DNA of 64,000 nt from an uncultured Verrucomicrobiota bacterium (GTDB lineage: Bacteria; Verrucomicrobiota; Verrucomicrobiia; JABWAM01), in the NCBI GenBank assembly GCA_964653025.1, contig CAZZBZ010000004.1:4173-68172 (forward strand). The letters run 5' to 3'. Within the stretch, counting starts at the first letter, position 1, and each line of letters begins with the position of its first letter. Position numbers and translations under genes: made by a program. Under the pieces are notes generated by a model. The model worked only from the letters and a program-made list of their open reading frames with translations, had not been told where the DNA came from and made no database searches. Positions 8,187 to 49,585 of this stretch are shown here, piece after piece.

Positions 8187-8485
8187 GTTCCAATGTTCAA
8201 AAGGAGACATTCCTGATCATCGGGGAGCATACGCGACTCGCGTGTCCAAACTCGGCGGCCCGCCGATTTTTCTCTTCTCGGATTCCGTTTGGCGAGCCGC
8301 CAAACGGGACACGCCAGCGGCGTGTGCTCCCCGATCCATTCCCCACCTTTGTAGGAGCCGCTGCCAGCGGCGACCCGAAATGGGGGGCCTGCCGACTGCA
8401 TGGTGCGAACCCTCGTGGCGTGGCGCATCCCAATTTCCTTTCGCCTCTGGCAGCGACTCCTACAGCCCCGACCGACTGAGATCCA

Positions 8486-36855: not shown

Positions 36856-36971
36856 TTACCCGGACAGAAAATGCGAGAGGAATGGACGCCGCCGGGGGCG
36901 GCCGCTAGTGTGGTGTCCACGAAATACTTGCCGTTACAGAACTCGCACATCCCGAGAAGATTGCTCTAAAT

Positions 36972-37040
36972 GATGGAGGGGCACGCTTCGTCGTGCCCTC
37001 TGTGAGGACCGATGGCCACGACGAAGCGTGGCCCTCCATC
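36972..37040. repeat. Long inverted repeat (about 25/27-bp stem, 16-nt loop)
   Basis: gatggaggggcacgcttcgtcgtgcc .. ggccacgacgaagcgtggccctccatc. Confidence 0.6.
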
Positions 37041-37101
37041 AAAAGAAATAATGGCAGATACTTCAAGGACAGCAGACTAGACTCCGCTCCAAGGAAAACG
37101 G

Positions 37102-38121: not shown

Positions 38122-38295
38122 TGCAGTTATCCAGGTTCACGGTTAAGGGGTTCAACGGTTCAACGGTTGGAAAGAGTATATGGAACGAGCATTTTGACGG
38201 TTTCGAGGCGTGGCAATTGAAGCGAGAACTGACTTGCAGTGTGAAATCAACCGCTGAACCGTGAACCGCGGAACCCAACAACCCGTCCGACCAGT

Positions 38296-39340: not shown

Positions 39341-39466
39341 GCCGCTCATCGGAGCCTCGATTCTGATCGGGGCGATGAGCGGCTCCATGCCCTGCATTCC
39401 GTTTTCGTGTGTTTCGTGTACTTCGTGGTAATCCTTCTGAATCCGTGTCCATCCGTGGCTTCCCCC
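39341..39466 (+). repeat. Structured repeat, copy A (divergent): 11-bp-stem hairpin + CGTG heptamer direct repeats + CATCCGTGGCTTC terminus, ending 9 nt before the polyferredoxin ATG
   Basis: gccgctcatcg-21nt-cgatgagcggc ..ttcgtgtgtttcgtgtacttcgtgg.. ctgaatccgtgtccatccgtggcttcc. Confidence 0.6.
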
Positions 39467-39474
39467 TCCTCACC

Positions 39475-41424
39475 ATGAAGATCCTCACGGCCCGCCGGAT
39501 CGCCCAGGTGTTCTTCCTCGCGCTCTTCACGTGGCTCTGCGTCGTCGCCACGGTCGGCACCGCCCCGTGGCAGTGGCGCGGATGGCCGATCAACGCCTTC
39601 CTCCAGTTCGACCCACTCGTGGCCGTCGGCACCGCCCTCAGCACCCATTCCCTTTACGCCGGGCTCGCCTGGGCACTCGTCACGGTCGCGGTGACGATGC
39701 TTCTCGGGCGCGTCTTCTGCGGTTGGGTCTGCCCCTTCGGCACGCTCCACCAAATCCTTGGCTGGCTGGGCCGACGGCGCTCTCGCCCGAAGGAAAAGGT
39801 GGAGGTAAACGAGTTCCACCCGGCGCAGCGTTTCAAGTACTACCTCCTCTTCGCGATGCTCGCGGCGGCTTCGGGAAACCTCGCGGTCAATCTCCTCCGC
39901 TCCACGCGTGAACAGCCTACCTGGGCGGTCGCGGCGATCGCCGCCGGATGTGCCATCGCCCTTTTCCTCGGTTTGCGGCGGTTCGTCTCAGGCCCCTCCA
40001 CCGCGGCCGCGCTCACCGTGCTCCTTGTCGGGGCCGGCGCGCTCGTCACCGGTCGCATTTCCACGGACCGCGCGATCGTCGCCTCACTCCAGACCGGACT
40101 GCTCGACCCGATCCCCCTGCTCCACCGCTCCTTCACGGTCGTGGTCCTGCCGCTCGCCGACTCGGCCTTCGGGCGAATCTGGAGCGCCCCCCGCCATTAC
40201 GAAGGGGCATGGTTCATCGGCGCTCTTTTCGCCGCCTTCCTCGCGCTCAACCTCTGGATCCCGCGCTTCTACTGCCGCTTCCTCTGCCCGCTCGGCGCGC
40301 TCCTCGGCGTCTTCGCGCGCACCACCCTCTGGTCGGTCGGGATCAAGGAGGCCCTCTGCACCGACTGCGCCTCCTGCGACCGCAACTGCGAGGGGGCCTG
40401 CACCCCGACCGGCCCGCTCCGCGTCAGCGAGTGCCTCATGTGCATGAATTGCCTCGAGGACTGCCCCACCTCGAAGCCGATCCACTACCATCCGCGCCCA
40501 TCGAGCAGCGGCGAGGAAACGGGCCACGGGGTCACCCGCCGCGGCTTTCTCATCTCGGTCGCGAGCGGCCTCGCCGCCACGCCCGCGCTCCGCCTTGGGG
40601 GACTCGTTGGCCCGACCTGGTCCGCCCAACTCGTCCGCCCTCCGGGCGCCGTCGATGAGGAGGAGTTCCTCGCGCGCTGCATCAAATGCGACCAGTGCCT
40701 CCGCGTCTGCCCCACCAATGTCCTCCAGCCCGCCGGCCTCTGGGCGGGGATCGAGGCGTTCTGGACCCCGTTCCTCAACAACCGCATCGGGACGAGCGGC
40801 TGCCAGGTCAATTGCATCGCCTGCGGAAACGCCTGCCCCACGGGCGCGATTCGCCCGCTCACCCTCGATGAAAAGCAAGGGAAGGGCGACTTCGCGGGGC
40901 GCGGACCCGTCCGCCTCGGCACCGCTTTCGTGGACCAGGGGCGCTGCCTCCCATGGGCCATGAACCGCCCTTGCATCGTCTGCGAGGAGAACTGCCCCAC
41001 CACGCCGAAGGCGATCTGGGTGGACACCACCTTCCGCGCGGTGCGCGACGGGACCCTTGCGATCGCCGCCGTCGAGGGCGACACCTTCCGCTTTGCAACC
41101 GGGGGACACGCCCTCCCCCCGGGCCGCTACGCGAGCGGGGACCACTTCTGCCTCGCCGAGGGGGACCCTGCCCCCCGGAGGATCGTCGCGAACACCGCGG
41201 ACACGGTGACGTTCGCCCCCGCTCCCGGCGGGAAGAAACCCCCGGCACCCGGCACCCGCGTGGAGATCCAGGTGCGCCTCCAGCGCCCCGTGGTGGAAGC
41301 CGAGCGCTGCATCGGCTGCGGAATCTGCGAGCACGAATGCCCCGTGAGCGGCCTCCGCGCCATCCGCATCACCGCCGAGGGCGAGACCCGCAGCGCCTCC
41401 CGCTCCCTCCTCGCCGGGCGCTGA
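39475..41424 (+). CDS. Membrane-bound polyferredoxin, NapH/MauN/RnfB-like 4Fe-4S binding protein
   Basis: TM segments with FCGWVCPFGTL and FYCRFLCPLGAL motifs plus multiple CxxCxxCxxxCP ferredoxin motifs (CIKCDQCLRVCP, CIACGNACP, CIVCEENCP, CIGCGICEHECP). Confidence 0.8.
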   Translation: MKILTARRIAQVFFLALFTWLCVVATVGTAPWQWRGWPINAFLQFDPLVAVGTALSTHSLYAGLAWALVTVAVTMLLGRVFCGWVCPFGTLHQILGWLGRRRSRPKEKVEVNEFHPAQRFKYYLLFAMLAAASGNLAVNLLRSTREQPTWAVAAIAAGCAIALFLGLRRFVSGPSTAAALTVLLVGAGALVTGRISTDRAIVASLQTGLLDPIPLLHRSFTVVVLPLADSAFGRIWSAPRHYEGAWFIGALFAAFLALNLWIPRFYCRFLCPLGALLGVFARTTLWSVGIKEALCTDCASCDRNCEGACTPTGPLRVSECLMCMNCLEDCPTSKPIHYHPRPSSSGEETGHGVTRRGFLISVASGLAATPALRLGGLVGPTWSAQLVRPPGAVDEEEFLARCIKCDQCLRVCPTNVLQPAGLWAGIEAFWTPFLNNRIGTSGCQVNCIACGNACPTGAIRPLTLDEKQGKGDFAGRGPVRLGTAFVDQGRCLPWAMNRPCIVCEENCPTTPKAIWVDTTFRAVRDGTLAIAAVEGDTFRFATGGHALPPGRYASGDHFCLAEGDPAPRRIVANTADTVTFAPAPGGKKPPAPGTRVEIQVRLQRPVVEAERCIGCGICEHECPVSGLRAIRITAEGETRSASRSLLAGR

Positions 41425-41431
41425 CCGCTTA

Positions 41432-41507
41432 CCCGAATCAGAAGCCACGGATGAAACACGGATTAGACACGGATAGCGCCAATCCCGCCACAACGGGATT
41501 GGCGCAC
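41432..41507 (-). repeat. Structured repeat, copy B (reverse orientation)
   Basis: The reverse complement reads ggtgcgccaatccc-gttgtggc-gggattggcgc tatccgtgtctaatccgtgtttcatccgtggcttctgattcgg. Confidence 0.75.
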
Positions 41508-41861
41508 CACGCAACTACCCACGAGATCATCGGGGCCGCGTTCGAAGTTCATCGCGAACTTGGCCACGGGTTCCTTGAGCGCGTCTATCAGCGCGCCCTC
41601 CTTATCGAACTCCAAAAGCGCGGAGTCCCTGCTGAATGCGAGCACAAGCTGTCGGTTTGCTACAAAGGTACCGTGGTGGGCGAGTATCAGGCCGACCTTG
41701 TTGTCGCGGGCAAGGTGATCGTCGAGTTAAAGGTCGCCCACGAGTACAACCCCTCCGACGAAGCTCAACTGTTGAACGAGTTGAAGGCGACCGGCATGAA
41801 GGTCGGAATCCTCCTCAACTTTGGCCGCGCAAAAGTCGAGTTCAAGAGAATGGTGCTGTGA
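41451..41861 (+). CDS. GxxExxY family protein (TIGR04256-like; PD-(D/E)xK-related small protein)
   Basis: THEIIGAAFEVHRELGHGFLERVYQRAL (GxxExxY motif) ..YQADLVV..IVELKV... The tracked ATG lies inside repeat copy B, so the true start may be downstream. Confidence 0.75.
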   Translation: MKHGLDTDSANPATTGLAHHATTHEIIGAAFEVHRELGHGFLERVYQRALLIELQKRGVPAECEHKLSVCYKGTVVGEYQADLVVAGKVIVELKVAHEYNPSDEAQLLNELKATGMKVGILLNFGRAKVEFKRMVL

Positions 41862-41906
41862 TCCATGGACCCTGATCGCTTCGGAGCGGTTTCTCCGTGC
41901 AATGGA

Positions 41907-41980
41907 GTGCGGCGATTCCGTGTAGCGGAATCGCCGCGTCTTCCTCCGATCCGTGTCCATCCGTGGCTTCTGATTCTGCC
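41907..41980 (+). repeat. Structured repeat, copy C (forward)
   Basis: gcggcgattcc-gtgtagc-ggaatcgccgc gtcttcctccg atccgtgtccatccgtggcttctgattctgcc. Confidence 0.75.
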
Positions 41981-42119
41981 TCTGAACTCCCCTTGCCAAA
42001 TCAACCCCTTCGCGGTCCGCTTTGCCTTTTTCGGATGGACACGCGCACACCGCCGGGCGGATATAGGGACGGTCTTCGCGAATCCCAAATCACGTTTTTA
42101 AAAAACAGGAGCACTCCCT

Positions 42120-46470: not shown

Positions 46471-46718
46471 GTGAGGCTGGAGGATGGAGGATTCATCGGG
46501 GAGCACACGCGGCCCGCGTGTTGAGGTGGGCGACCCGCCCGCCTCGTCCGAAGATCGATTCGGCGAGCCGCCGAATCGCGCACGCGAGCCGCGTGCACTC
46601 CCCAGAACGTCATCGAGTGCATCGGTGCTCCACCGATGGGTGGGGATGGTCTCGCTCTGGAGAAGCCGCTTGCGCGAGGATCAGGACTGCCCGACGCCCC
46701 CGTCGCCCGACTTTCCGC

Positions 46719-49027: not shown

Positions 49028-49585
49028 TCATGCCCCCCTGTCGCCGGTGGCTGTTCGATCGAGCTCCGCGTCGGCCACATGGGCGTATTGGGCCGAGAGG
49101 AAGGAGTGCGTTCCGTGGACACAATCCTTCGCGGCATTCATGGTCGAGAGATACTTCCGCACCGCACCGGCATATCGCGGATCGCCGAGGATCTGCGAGG
49201 CCTTGACCATACTGAAGAGGGCGGCGGCCCCGATGAGCGTGTAGGGCGTCCCCTTCGACCCCCCGTTGAGCCAGATACCGTCGGCGGGTTGAAGCCGAAG
49301 CATGAGGTCGGCCCACCGCCGCAGCCGATCGCAAAAATCGGACGGCCGCCGATCATCGCGAATCGCCCACTCGAGAAACGCCAGCGGCGCGAGCAGCCCG
49401 CTCCCAAAGCTGATGCTCTCGGGGCCCGTCAGACAGCTCGTGCCCGACATCGTTCCGGCCCCCGCCTGCCCCCCGAACCCGCCGTCGGGAAGCTGTGTCG
49501 CCAGGAGGCGCCCCGCCGTCTGGCGCGCGAAGTCCAGATAGAGCGGCTCCGCCGTGTAGTCCCACAACGCCATCAGGCACGTCAA
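49028..49585 (-). CDS. Hypothetical protein, possible alpha/alpha-toroid (prenyltransferase/LanC-like) fragment
   Basis: ..LQPADGIWLNGG.., ..KDCVHGTHSF.., Gly-rich GGFGGQAGAG. 185 aa, short for the fold, so possibly a truncated gene. Confidence 0.45.
   Translation of the reverse strand: MTCLMALWDYTAEPLYLDFARQTAGRLLATQLPDGGFGGQAGAGTMSGTSCLTGPESISFGSGLLAPLAFLEWAIRDDRRPSDFCDRLRRWADLMLRLQPADGIWLNGGSKGTPYTLIGAAALFSMVKASQILGDPRYAGAVRKYLSTMNAAKDCVHGTHSFLSAQYAHVADAELDRTATGDRGA

What the first reader, a model, noticed from the sequence alone, without database searches (positions are those of the whole stretch)
41432..41980. New dispersed structured-repeat family with compensatory stem changes; inverted copies bracket a GxxExxY gene (MITE-like cassette)
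Copies B (reverse), C and D (forward) share three features: (i) an 11-bp perfect stem whose sequence differs between copies by compensating changes (gcgccaatccc/gggattggcgc; gcggcgattcc/ggaatcgccgc; gcgccgattcc/ggaatcggcgc), which is covariation indicative of selection on structure; (ii) two to three ATCCGTG direct repeats spaced 10-11 bp (helical phase); (iii) a conserved terminus CATCCGTGGCTTCTGATTC. B and C are in inverted orientation with the conserved termini outward, enclosing 549 bp that contain only the GxxExxY gene, whose annotated ATG lies inside B. This is the signature of a non-autonomous transposable cassette or an integron-like recombination site carrying a GxxExxY cargo. GxxExxY proteins are PD-(D/E)xK-related and notoriously multi-copy. 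The alternative is a phased transcription-factor binding array.
Basis: seen in the sequence. Interest (0 to 1): 0.8.

Follow-up and report, generated by a model that had tools for sequence, protein, structure and literature searches.

The report
Nuclease gene cassette inside heptamer-repeat palindrome
The small GxxExxY nuclease gene sits in a roughly 540-bp inserted cassette whose two ends are inverted arrays of a phased 7-base repeat. The same design brackets GxxExxY genes in several bacterial phyla and also occurs as many gene-less palindromes, so it looks like an undescribed kind of small mobile DNA.

Summary
A perfect 19-nt inverted repeat (41435-41453 / 41958-41976), phased ATCCGTG heptamers and perfect 12-bp hairpins bracket one GxxExxY (PD-(D/E)xK) gene. 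The window holds 4 such arrays against 0.08 expected by chance.

It is not a genome-specific MITE:
- The heptamer pattern hit at least 97 loci in eight or more phyla. Most are short gene-less palindromes with three CACGGAT repeats, a centre of 3-200 nt, and three ATCCGTG repeats.
- At least 65 of 83 sampled GxxExxY genes, down to 42% identity, lie exactly between such arms. Heptamer variants change together in both arms.
- The cassette behaves as a discrete unit. Two copies 96% identical share homology only from GCCAC to GTGGC, with unrelated flanks.
- More distant relatives of this organism (61-64% identity) have a clean Fer4-AKR junction. The closest relative (82% identity) has a different gene-less array element there.

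No target-site duplication, integrase or Rfam family was found, and there is no RNA wobble bias.

Best reading, inferred rather than shown: the nuclease recognises the heptamer arrays, and the cassette and its gene-less derivatives spread like a REPIN-RAYT system built on a different enzyme. I found no description of this in the searchable literature.

The parts
41435..41474 (-). Left arm of the cassette (copy B). It has the outward terminus GAATCAGAAGCC followed by three CACGGAT heptamers at 41446, 41457 and 41468.
   Evidence: the 19-nt perfect inverted repeat pairs with 41958-41976
41476..41505 (+). 5' hairpin: 12-bp perfect stem (41476-41487 / 41494-41505) with loop CCACAA. It contains the in-frame TTG at 41499.
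   Evidence: DNA fold z = -5.7; conserved with covariation in L185, L186, L189 and L192
41451..41861 (+). GxxExxY / PDDEXK_3 gene. The longest ORF starts at ATG 41451 inside the array. The conserved domain starts at residue 22. An alternative start is TTG 41499, the equivalent of the start NCBI calls for P0075.
41909..41937 (+). 3' hairpin: 12-bp stem (41909-41920 / 41926-41937). It is an inverted copy of the 5' hairpin module.
41949..41976 (+). Right arm of the cassette (copy C). It has two ATCCGTG heptamers (41949, 41959) followed by GGCTTCTGATTC.
42032..42043 (+). Isolated reverse-oriented fragment CGGATGGACACG. It lies in sequence that is conserved upstream of the AKR gene in relative L181.
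39341..39462 (+). Copy A, a gene-less half unit filling the DUF362-Fer4 spacer. It has a hairpin (39341-39351 / 39373-39383), three TTCGTG repeats (39403-39428, spacing 9), and two ATCCGTG repeats plus GGCTTC (39441-39462). It ends 13 nt before the Fer4 ATG at 39475.
   Evidence: the spacer is 3 nt in relative L183; the same hairpin occurs in L181
62326..62606 (+). Copy D, a gene-less unit. It has a remnant left arm GAAGCCACGGAT (62391-62402), hairpin 62435-62446 / 62452-62463, hairpin 62503-62514 / 62520-62531, and a right arm of ATCCGTG x2 plus ATCTGTG plus GGCTTC (62540-62572). The whole block is about 93% identical to L002, whose flanks are unrelated.

Best explanation
Shown:
- Window 41435-41976 is one member of a very widespread family of compact cassettes.
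- Each cassette has a roughly 120-aa PD-(D/E)xK nuclease gene (GxxExxY) fitted between two inverted arms.
- Each arm carries two to three, usually three, copies of a 7-base repeat (CACGGAT / ATCCGTG or a close variant) spaced 10-11 bp, and ends outward in GCCAC...GTGGC.
- The cassette is a discrete unit of DNA that has been inserted into an operon junction. It sits beside a much larger population of gene-less palindromes built from the same arms (copies A and D here).

Inferred:
- The heptamer arrays are binding sites, on one face of the duplex, for the encoded nuclease, probably acting as a dimer or higher oligomer.
- The nuclease cuts at or between the arms, possibly on extruded or single-stranded hairpin DNA.
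- Host repair or replication then copies the unit into other intergenic slots or into resident palindromes.
- Gene-less units are non-autonomous relatives mobilised in trans.
- The gene has no promoter of its own. It persists only where host read-through transcribes it.
- In this Opitutaceae lineage the arms have gained an extra GC-rich hairpin module.
For: Anatomy:
- 237 arrays were found, 159 of them with exactly 3 heptamers. Spacing was 10 bp in 260 cases and 11 bp in 133. The terminal heptamer is followed by GCT in 160 arrays.
- There were 77 left-arm to right-arm pairs. Most centres are 3-200 nt, and the centres near 475 nt hold GxxExxY genes.

Coupling of gene and arms:
- About 37-45 of 80 metagenome homologues have ATCCGTG-type arms.
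- A de novo search found 3+3 phased heptamers, with the upstream array the reverse complement of the downstream one, at 65 or more of 83 genes.
- The bracket persists in a 42%-identity homologue on an AT-rich contig and on one IMG/VR contig.
- Arrays are 32 times denser within 150 nt of these genes than elsewhere.
- All six heptamers of a cassette carry the same variant. Variants group into clades on the protein tree.

Heptamers rather than a continuous stem are conserved:
- Spacers between arms match only 58% of the time, against 47.5% in shuffles.
- Heptamer mismatches show no G.U bias on the sense strand: 9 against 19.

The cassette is a discrete inserted unit:
- L099 and L100 are 96% identical only from GCCAC to GTGGC plus about 14 nt. 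Their flanking genes are unrelated.
- The Fer4-AKR junction is 24-89 nt in relatives L182 and L183, against 695 nt here.
- The closest relatives carry a different gene-less array element in the same slot (L181; L199).

The enzyme looks active:
- The model has pLDDT 91.8 and its best PDB matches are Cas4, lambda exonuclease and Hjc-type nucleases.
- E27, D66, E76 and K78 are invariant or nearly so.
- Tandem two-domain fusions are common, which fits a dimer.

Co-orientation with host genes is 53 of 59 upstream and 53 of 62 downstream.
Against: - There is no direct evidence that GxxExxY binds or cuts the arrays.
- No consistent target-site duplication was found.
- A PD-(D/E)xK hydrolase cannot carry out strand transfer by itself, so spread would need host functions.
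- Cassettes persist at one site across deep divergence (cdsA-dxr; UvrD-MalQ). They are more conserved than their flanks. This fits a domesticated or host-useful gene as well as it fits an active mobile one.
- No ORF remnants were found in gene-less centres.
- No specificity-determining residue tracks heptamer type.
- Gene-less array elements with other motifs exist and have no known partner gene.
Confidence: 0.5

Rival explanations
1. The arms are ends recognised by an unlinked transposase or recombinase, and GxxExxY is cargo such as a defence, addiction or repair nuclease.
For: - The arms are terminal inverted repeats with several sites each, as in Mu- or Tn7-type ends.
- Gene-less units greatly outnumber loaded ones.
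- A hydrolytic nuclease alone cannot transpose DNA.
- The cassette moves as a unit.
Against: - In the sample read, the same single gene family is the only recurrent content of these arms.
- Start and stop codons are fitted to the inner heptamers.
- Heptamer variants travel with protein clades.
- No transposase or integrase was adjacent in any context read.
- No target-site duplication was found.
Confidence: 0.2
2. The arrays are host cis-elements: phased operator sites for a conserved DNA-binding protein, or insulator, terminator or nucleoid-organising palindromes like REP/BIME. GxxExxY is then simply a gene regulated by or lodged in them.
For: - The 10-11 bp phasing of identical short repeats is typical of operator arrays.
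- Units sit tightly in intergenic spacers inside operons in all orientation classes.
- Units persist for long periods at fixed sites.
Against: - Presence and absence vary, and different elements replace each other at orthologous junctions.
- A 96%-identical cassette occurs in unrelated contexts.
- The same heptamer occurs in at least eight phyla, which fits horizontal spread better than a shared regulator.
- The hairpins are not followed by T-runs, and the terminator scan is at chance level: 2 found against 2.5 expected.
Confidence: 0.15
3. The element acts as RNA. The two arms pair in the transcript, putting the gene in the loop as in ORF-bearing 23S rRNA intervening sequences, or the gene-less units are structured small RNAs.
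For: - Units fold into long segmented hairpins (z = -5.7 to -6.9).
- The 12-bp hairpin shows covariation.
- The gene is co-transcribed with host genes.
Against: - There is no Rfam match.
- There is no wobble-only cell in the hairpin alignment.
- There is no G.U excess on the sense strand in the arms: 9 against 19 A.C.
- Spacers between helices hardly covary.
- Three identical helices per arm are not required by any fold.
Confidence: 0.07
4. It is an integron-like gene cassette with an attC-type recombination site.
For: It is a promoterless single-gene cassette, co-oriented with upstream genes and bounded by imperfect palindromes.
Against: - The two arms flank the gene rather than forming a single attC downstream of it.
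- The termini are GCCAC...GTGGC, not a GTTRRRY core.
- Cassettes occur singly in housekeeping operons, not in arrays beside an integrase.
Confidence: 0.03

Closest known systems
REPIN-RAYT systems (REP doublets and their REP-associated tyrosine transposase; PMC3116915, PMC3337134)
   Same: - Short inverted repeat doublets form hairpins and are scattered in intergenic DNA.
- The associated enzyme gene is itself flanked by the repeats in inverted orientation.
- Gene-less units far outnumber the gene.
- Units persist for long periods at fixed sites.
   Different: - The enzyme is a roughly 120-aa PD-(D/E)xK nuclease, not an HUH/Y1 transposase.
- Each arm is three phased copies of a heptamer, not a GTAG-tagged palindrome.
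- The same repeat is shared across phyla, whereas REPs are lineage-specific.
- The gene is multi-copy and evidently transferred horizontally.
MITEs and other small palindromic bacterial repeats (Correia/NEMIS, ERIC, BOX, RUP; from my own knowledge)
   Same: They are small, have terminal inverted repeats, are dispersed, sit in intergenic DNA and are often co-transcribed with flanking genes.
   Different: - No target-site duplication was found.
- No parent IS with a DDE transposase is known.
- The arms are arrays of phased heptamers.
- A dedicated small nuclease gene occupies the centre of the loaded form.
Free-standing or intron-borne homing endonuclease genes of the PD-(D/E)xK class (for example I-Ssp6803I; from my own knowledge)
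   Same: - A small PD-(D/E)xK nuclease gene lies in the middle of a symmetric DNA site.
- The same site also exists unoccupied elsewhere.
- No target duplication is produced.
   Different: - The unoccupied sites are themselves dispersed repeats, not one conserved host gene.
- Whole arms move together with the gene.
- Cleavage of the site has not been shown.
Integron cassettes with attC
   Same: Both are promoterless single-gene units with palindromic boundaries, oriented with the upstream transcription.
   Different: No integrase, attI, cassette arrays or attC core sequence were found, and inverted arms lie on both sides of the gene.
ORF-bearing 23S rRNA intervening sequences (S23p four-helix-bundle ORFs; from my own knowledge)
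   Same: A small multi-copy ORF is enclosed by inverted repeats that could pair.
   Different: The element is not in rRNA, the protein fold is different, and there is no sign of selection at the RNA level.

Membership tests
GxxExxY / PDDEXK_3 protein family (TIGR04256, PF13366) | Profile match above the curated cut-off | tested here: met
   TIGR04256 scored 142.7 bits against a cut-off of 35. PF13366 scored 134.4 bits against a cut-off of 22.
GxxExxY / PDDEXK_3 protein family (TIGR04256, PF13366) | PD-(D/E)xK fold with the acidic and lysine catalytic residues, plus the GxxExxY motif | tested here: met
   G24-x-x-E27-x-x-Y30, D66, E76 and K78 are invariant or nearly so in 40 homologues. The model has pLDDT 91.8, and its best PDB matches are Cas4, lambda exonuclease and Hjc.
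MITE | Terminal inverted repeats on a short unit present in many dispersed copies | tested here: met
   There is a 19-nt perfect terminal inverted repeat here. At least 97 loci were found, with several per MAG, and 77 left-arm to right-arm units.
MITE | Target-site duplication of fixed length at the ends | tested here: not met
   The flanks of the window cassette, L099/L100, L185-L192 and about 37 metagenome cassettes show no consistent direct repeat. Direct repeats beside copy D (10 nt) and L002 (12 nt) differ in length and in distance from the unit.
MITE | Derivation from a parent IS that encodes a recognised transposase | tested here: not met
   The only ORF inside loaded units is GxxExxY. 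No ORF remnants occur in gene-less centres.
REPIN-RAYT | The repeat is a GTAG/CGTC-tagged imperfect palindrome of 20-40 nt | tested here: not met
   The arms are three direct heptamers whose spacers do not pair. No GTAG tag is present.
REPIN-RAYT | The associated gene is an HUH/Y1 (IS200-like) transposase flanked by inverted repeats | tested here: not met
   The flanking arrangement is met, but the protein is PD-(D/E)xK.
Integron cassette | A single attC downstream of the gene with a GTTRRRY core, an adjacent IntI and attI, and cassette arrays | tested here: not met
   The arms lie on both sides and the termini are GCCAC/GTGGC. Cassettes occur singly in housekeeping operons. The whole window was not scanned for an integrase.
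Intrinsic (Rho-independent) terminator | A GC-rich hairpin followed directly by a T-run | tested here: not met
   The 12-bp hairpins are followed by GTCTTCCTCC or TCTCCTCT. The scan found only two 5-bp stems inside the arrays, which is chance level: 2 against 2.5.
Known RNA family (Rfam 15) | A covariance-model match at the gathering score | tested here: not met
   There were 0 matches in the 64-kb window.
Homing endonuclease gene | The nuclease gene interrupts its own recognition site, and intact sites exist elsewhere | tested here: inconclusive
   The gene lies at the centre of a palindromic site that also exists unoccupied. Whole arms move with the gene, and orthologous empty slots hold other motifs.
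Homing endonuclease gene | Demonstrated cleavage of the unoccupied site | not testable with these tools
   This needs biochemistry.

The most novel reading that the evidence does not exclude
GxxExxY cassettes are autonomous mobile elements of only about 460 bp. Their sole protein is a PD-(D/E)xK nuclease that recognises phased heptamer arrays. This would be a new class of bacterial mobile DNA. It would have crossed phylum boundaries and seeded very large numbers of gene-less palindromic units in Verrucomicrobiota, Planctomycetota, Acidobacteriota, Chloroflexota and other phyla. It would also explain why the GxxExxY family is so notoriously multi-copy.
Probability: 0.35. Interest if true: 0.9.

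Novelty: new variant of a known kind. Interest (0 to 1): 0.75.

Why it matters
- PDDEXK_3/GxxExxY is a very large family: 16,885 clusters at 50% identity. The PD-(D/E)xK census lists its function as 'Unknown' (PMC3424549).
- Placing the gene inside a defined repeat architecture with exact boundaries gives the family a concrete, testable role. It also gives a defined DNA substrate for biochemistry.
- It explains a class of intergenic repeats that produce spurious ORFs and wrong start codons in genomes of soil and freshwater phyla. The ATG at 41451 may be one such wrong start.
- If the nuclease drives spread, this would be one of the smallest self-contained mobile elements known. It would be a second, enzymatically unrelated example of the REPIN-RAYT lifestyle.

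Tried and rejected
- Rfam gathering scan of the whole window found nothing.
- Promoter and terminator scan found no promoter, and terminator-like sites were at chance level.
- I first tested whether the DNA motif marks GxxExxY genes. Only 4 of 97 motif loci carry the gene, which showed that gene-less units dominate.
- I inspected many cassette boundaries for target-site duplications and found none that were consistent.
- I tested for an RNA-level stem between the arms. Spacer covariation is weak and there is no G.U bias.
- I looked for deletion remnants of the ORF in gene-less centres with a profile search of six-frame translations and found none.
- I looked for residues that track heptamer type. 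The result was dominated by one clade and is uninformative.
- PADLOC, PHROGs and a PDB sequence search gave no hits.
- A CsrA-type GGA motif idea and a DnaA-box or parS resemblance were dropped. Heptamer variants lose the GGA, and the similarity is partial.
- Six literature searches found no description of the architecture (GxxExxY, PDDEXK_3/PF13366, TIGR04256, the heptamer string, REPIN/RAYT with these phyla, MITE with these phyla).

Full report

Yes. Reading the window shows the following.
- On the left of the gene: GAATCAGAAGCCACGGATgaaaCACGGATtagaCACGGAT, then a perfect 12-bp hairpin (41476-41487 / 41494-41505).
- On the right: a perfect 12-bp hairpin (41909-41920 / 41926-41937), then ATCCGTGtccATCCGTGGCTTCTGATTC.
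- The 19-nt terminus is exact and inverted at 41435-41453 and 41958-41976. Chance expectation is 0.04 matches even when three mismatches are allowed.
- Copy D (62503-62572) has the hairpin and three heptamers but a variant terminus.
- A fourth copy, A (39441-39462), lies 13 nt before the Fer4 gene's ATG.

The bare heptamer is not enriched (14 against 9.4). Phased arrays are: 4 against 0.08 expected.

The enclosed ORF is a GxxExxY / PDDEXK_3 protein. Its conserved domain begins at residue 22 of the ATG-41451 ORF. An in-frame TTG at 41499 corresponds to the start NCBI uses for a homologue (P0075 against P0008).

**2. The motif is not specific to this genome or to GxxExxY genes.**

I scanned one genome per species for ATCCGTG-N3-4-ATCCGTGGCTTC. 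They came from Verrucomicrobiota, Planctomycetota, Acidobacteriota, Chloroflexota, KSB1, Calditrichota, Cloacimonadota, Bacteroidota, Binatia and a Thioalkalivibrio.

Only four of these loci hold a GxxExxY gene. The motif is normally half of a short palindromic unit: GCCACGGAT-N3-4-CACGGAT-N3-4-CACGGAT, then a centre, then ATCCGTG-N3-4-ATCCGTG-N3-4-ATCCGTGGC.

| Measure | Result |
|---|---|
| Arrays found | 237 |
| Arrays with exactly three heptamers | 159 |
| Spacing of 10 bp | 260 cases |
| Spacing of 11 bp | 133 cases |
| Left-arm to right-arm pairs | 77 |
| Typical centre length | 3-200 nt |

The units lie in intergenic DNA, often filling it to within a few bases. They occur in tandem, convergent and divergent gene contexts.

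**3. GxxExxY genes are, conversely, regularly inside such arms.**

- Of 80 metagenome homologues (50-70% identity), about 37-45 have ATCCGTG-type arms directly at the gene.
- The last left heptamer lies about 8-40 nt before the start codon.
- In the compact forms the stop codon overlaps the first right heptamer (TAATCCGTG).
- The remainder carry the same design with variant heptamers: CACAGAT, CACGGAA, CACGAAT, CACAGAA, CGCAGAC, CGCGGAT. All six copies of a cassette share the variant.
- A search that assumed no motif found 3+3 phased heptamers, upstream array the reverse complement of the downstream one, at 65 or more of 83 genes.
- A 42%-identity homologue on an AT-rich contig has the same bracket. 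So does the one IMG/VR contig found.
- Arrays are 32 times denser within 150 nt of these genes than elsewhere in the same loci.
- Heptamer variants group into clades on the protein tree, though CACGGAT and CACAGAT interchange repeatedly.

**4. The cassette is a discrete inserted unit.**

The organism is an Opitutaceae. At the Fer4-AKR junction:

| Relative | Fer4 identity | Spacer | Content |
|---|---|---|---|
| L183 | 61% | 24 nt | clean |
| L182 | 64% | 89 nt | clean |
| Window | - | 695 nt | GxxExxY cassette |
| L181 | 82% | about 490 nt | gene-less unit with other heptamers |

The L181 unit has the hairpin also seen in copy A. Its right arm lies at the same position relative to conserved downstream sequence.

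In Candidatus Udaeobacter:
- The UvrD-MalQ junction carries the cassette in L099 and in relatives with 77-81% MalQ identity.
- In the closest relatives (89% identity) the 129-nt spacer is filled, from stop codon to start codon, by a gene-less palindrome built from a different repeat, AATGACGAA / TTCGTCATT.

The clearest case is L099 against L100. They share 96% identity from GCCACAGAT to GTGGC plus about 14 nt and nothing beyond. Their neighbouring genes are unrelated.

Copy D behaves in a similar way. A 290-nt block is about 93% identical to L002, with unrelated flanks.

No consistent target-site duplication was seen.

**5. DNA or RNA? Stem or protein sites?**

Gene-less units fold as three helices of 6-10 bp separated by small internal loops (z = -5.7 to -6.9). 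Against a selected continuous stem:
- Spacers of the two arms match only 58% of the time, against 47.5 +/- 3.6% for shuffled partners. A quarter of the spacer pairs differ in length.
- In 53 distinct loaded cassettes the heptamer pairs are 95.7% Watson-Crick. The mismatches show no G.U excess on the sense strand: 9 G.U, 19 A.C, 20 transversions.
- Three identical short repeats per arm at one helical turn are what a protein bound to one face of duplex DNA would need. No fold requires them.

I therefore read the heptamers as protein-binding sites on DNA.

**6. The hairpins.**

- The 5' hairpin lies between the left array and the core ORF. It is conserved in the 136-aa subfamily (window, L185, L186, L189, L192), with no indels over 81 nt.
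- The 3' hairpin is present only in the window's C and D copies, L002 and L186. It is an inverted copy of the same module.
- Across seven hairpins, 7 of 12 pairs change on both sides and 95% of cells pair. No cell is wobble-only, and 0 of 500 shuffles reach the observed score.
The hairpin is a lineage-level addition, not a defining feature of the family, and most cassettes lack it.
- The absence of wobble pairs again points to DNA-level palindromy, though the sample is small.

**7. The protein.**

- The model is confident (pLDDT 91.8). It matches Cas4 SSO0001, lambda and alkaline exonucleases, a restriction-endonuclease-like protein and an archaeal Holliday-junction resolvase.
- G24/E27/Y30, D66, E76 and K78 are invariant or nearly so, so an active nuclease is likely.
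- The family has 16,885 clusters at 50% identity. Many members are tandem two-domain fusions, which fits a dimer.
- There are no PDB sequence relatives and no PADLOC or PHROG hits.
- The gene is co-oriented with its upstream neighbour in 53 of 59 cases and with its downstream neighbour in 53 of 62. It lies in operon junctions with almost no spacer, so it probably depends on host read-through transcription.

**8. Interpretation.**

Shown: a cross-phylum family of cassettes and gene-less palindromes with exact boundaries, variable presence, and tight coupling between arms and gene.

Inferred: GxxExxY binds the heptamer arrays and cuts there, and host repair or replication spreads the loaded and gene-less units. 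This resembles the REPIN-RAYT relationship but uses a PD-(D/E)xK enzyme.

Points against the inference:
- No biochemical evidence and no target-site duplication.
- Long persistence at fixed sites, where the cassette is more conserved than its flanks.
- No ORF remnants in gene-less centres.
- No specificity residue that tracks heptamer type.

The main rivals are mobilisation by an unlinked enzyme with GxxExxY as cargo, host operator or insulator arrays, an RNA-level role, and an integron-like site. The last is contradicted by the anatomy and the gene contexts.

**9. Novelty.**

Six full-text searches found no description of this architecture. The PD-(D/E)xK census lists PDDEXK_3 as of unknown function, with multiple transfers between divisions (PMC3424549). 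The REP survey that covers these phyla describes only GTAG/CGTC repeats (PMC3733652).

I rate it a new variant of a known kind, namely small palindromic mobile repeats with an associated nuclease gene. There is a substantial chance that it is a new class of element.

Noticed in passing
window 38133-38170 and 38249-38277; also 2586-2635: This is a second family of inverted short-repeat arrays. Tandem 8-mers GGTTCAAC/GGTTCACG on one side face their reverse complement about 80 nt away, filling an intergenic spacer. The design of inverted arrays around a centre is the same, but the period is 8 nt with no spacer.
   Followed up: partly
window 8219-8335 and 46485-46603 (weaker copy 49355-49399): These are REP-like composite palindromes (ATCGGGGAGCAyACGCG...CGCGTGT...) present in at least two or three copies. 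They may relate to the GTAG-type repeats reported as abundant in Opitutus terrae (PMC3733652).
   Followed up: no
window 36971-36998 / 37014-37041: A 28-nt inverted repeat, 93% complementary, with a 15-nt loop. I did not examine it.
   Followed up: no
window 62312-62345 / 62612-62645; L002 847-858 / 1164-1175: Copy D is itself enclosed by a 34-nt inverted repeat (79% complementary) and by a 10-nt direct repeat, GATTGCCGTC. The 93%-identical block in L002 is flanked by a 12-nt direct repeat, ATGCCTGCTCAC. These could be target duplications of a larger unit, but their lengths and offsets differ, so the question is unresolved.
   Followed up: partly
L199 2860-3000; L181 3360-3720: In close relatives, the operon junctions that hold the GxxExxY cassette elsewhere are filled exactly from stop codon to start codon by gene-less palindromes built from other short repeats. 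These are AATGACGAA/TTCGTCATT in L199 and CACGAAG-like repeats plus the copy-A hairpin in L181. The junctions look like slots in which array elements turn over.
   Followed up: partly
L020 1600-2540 and 7340-7840; L076 890-1110 and 2100-2500; L077 6743-6863: Some genomes carry long tandem runs of whole units, for example units of about 240 nt repeated head to tail in L020. Others have arrays of up to 12 heptamers (L077).
   Followed up: no
L050 1125-3240; L076 1104-2105: A group II intron reverse transcriptase lies between two arms in L050. An IS256-like transposase fragment lies between two arms in L076. Other mobile elements appear to have landed in or between these palindromes.
   Followed up: no
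proteins P0241, P0242, P0246 and others: Many GxxExxY homologues are tandem two-domain proteins of about 250-295 aa.
   Followed up: no
window 41451-41498; L185, L186, L189, L192: In the 136-aa subfamily an ATG created by heptamer plus spacer (GGATGAAA) opens a frame that stays open through the array and the hairpin for exactly 81 nt in all five sequences read. It is unclear whether this leader (MKHGLNTD...PATTGLAH) is translated. Annotation pipelines disagree: P0008 is called at 136 aa and the same sequence as P0075 at 120 aa.
   Followed up: partly
L186-L188, from the same samples as the window (SRR12261223 and SRR12261225): A second GxxExxY cassette, 69% identical in protein, has both the 5' and the 3' hairpin. 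It sits between an M20 peptidase gene and an alcohol dehydrogenase gene. It is probably a paralogue in the same or a closely related genome.
   Followed up: partly
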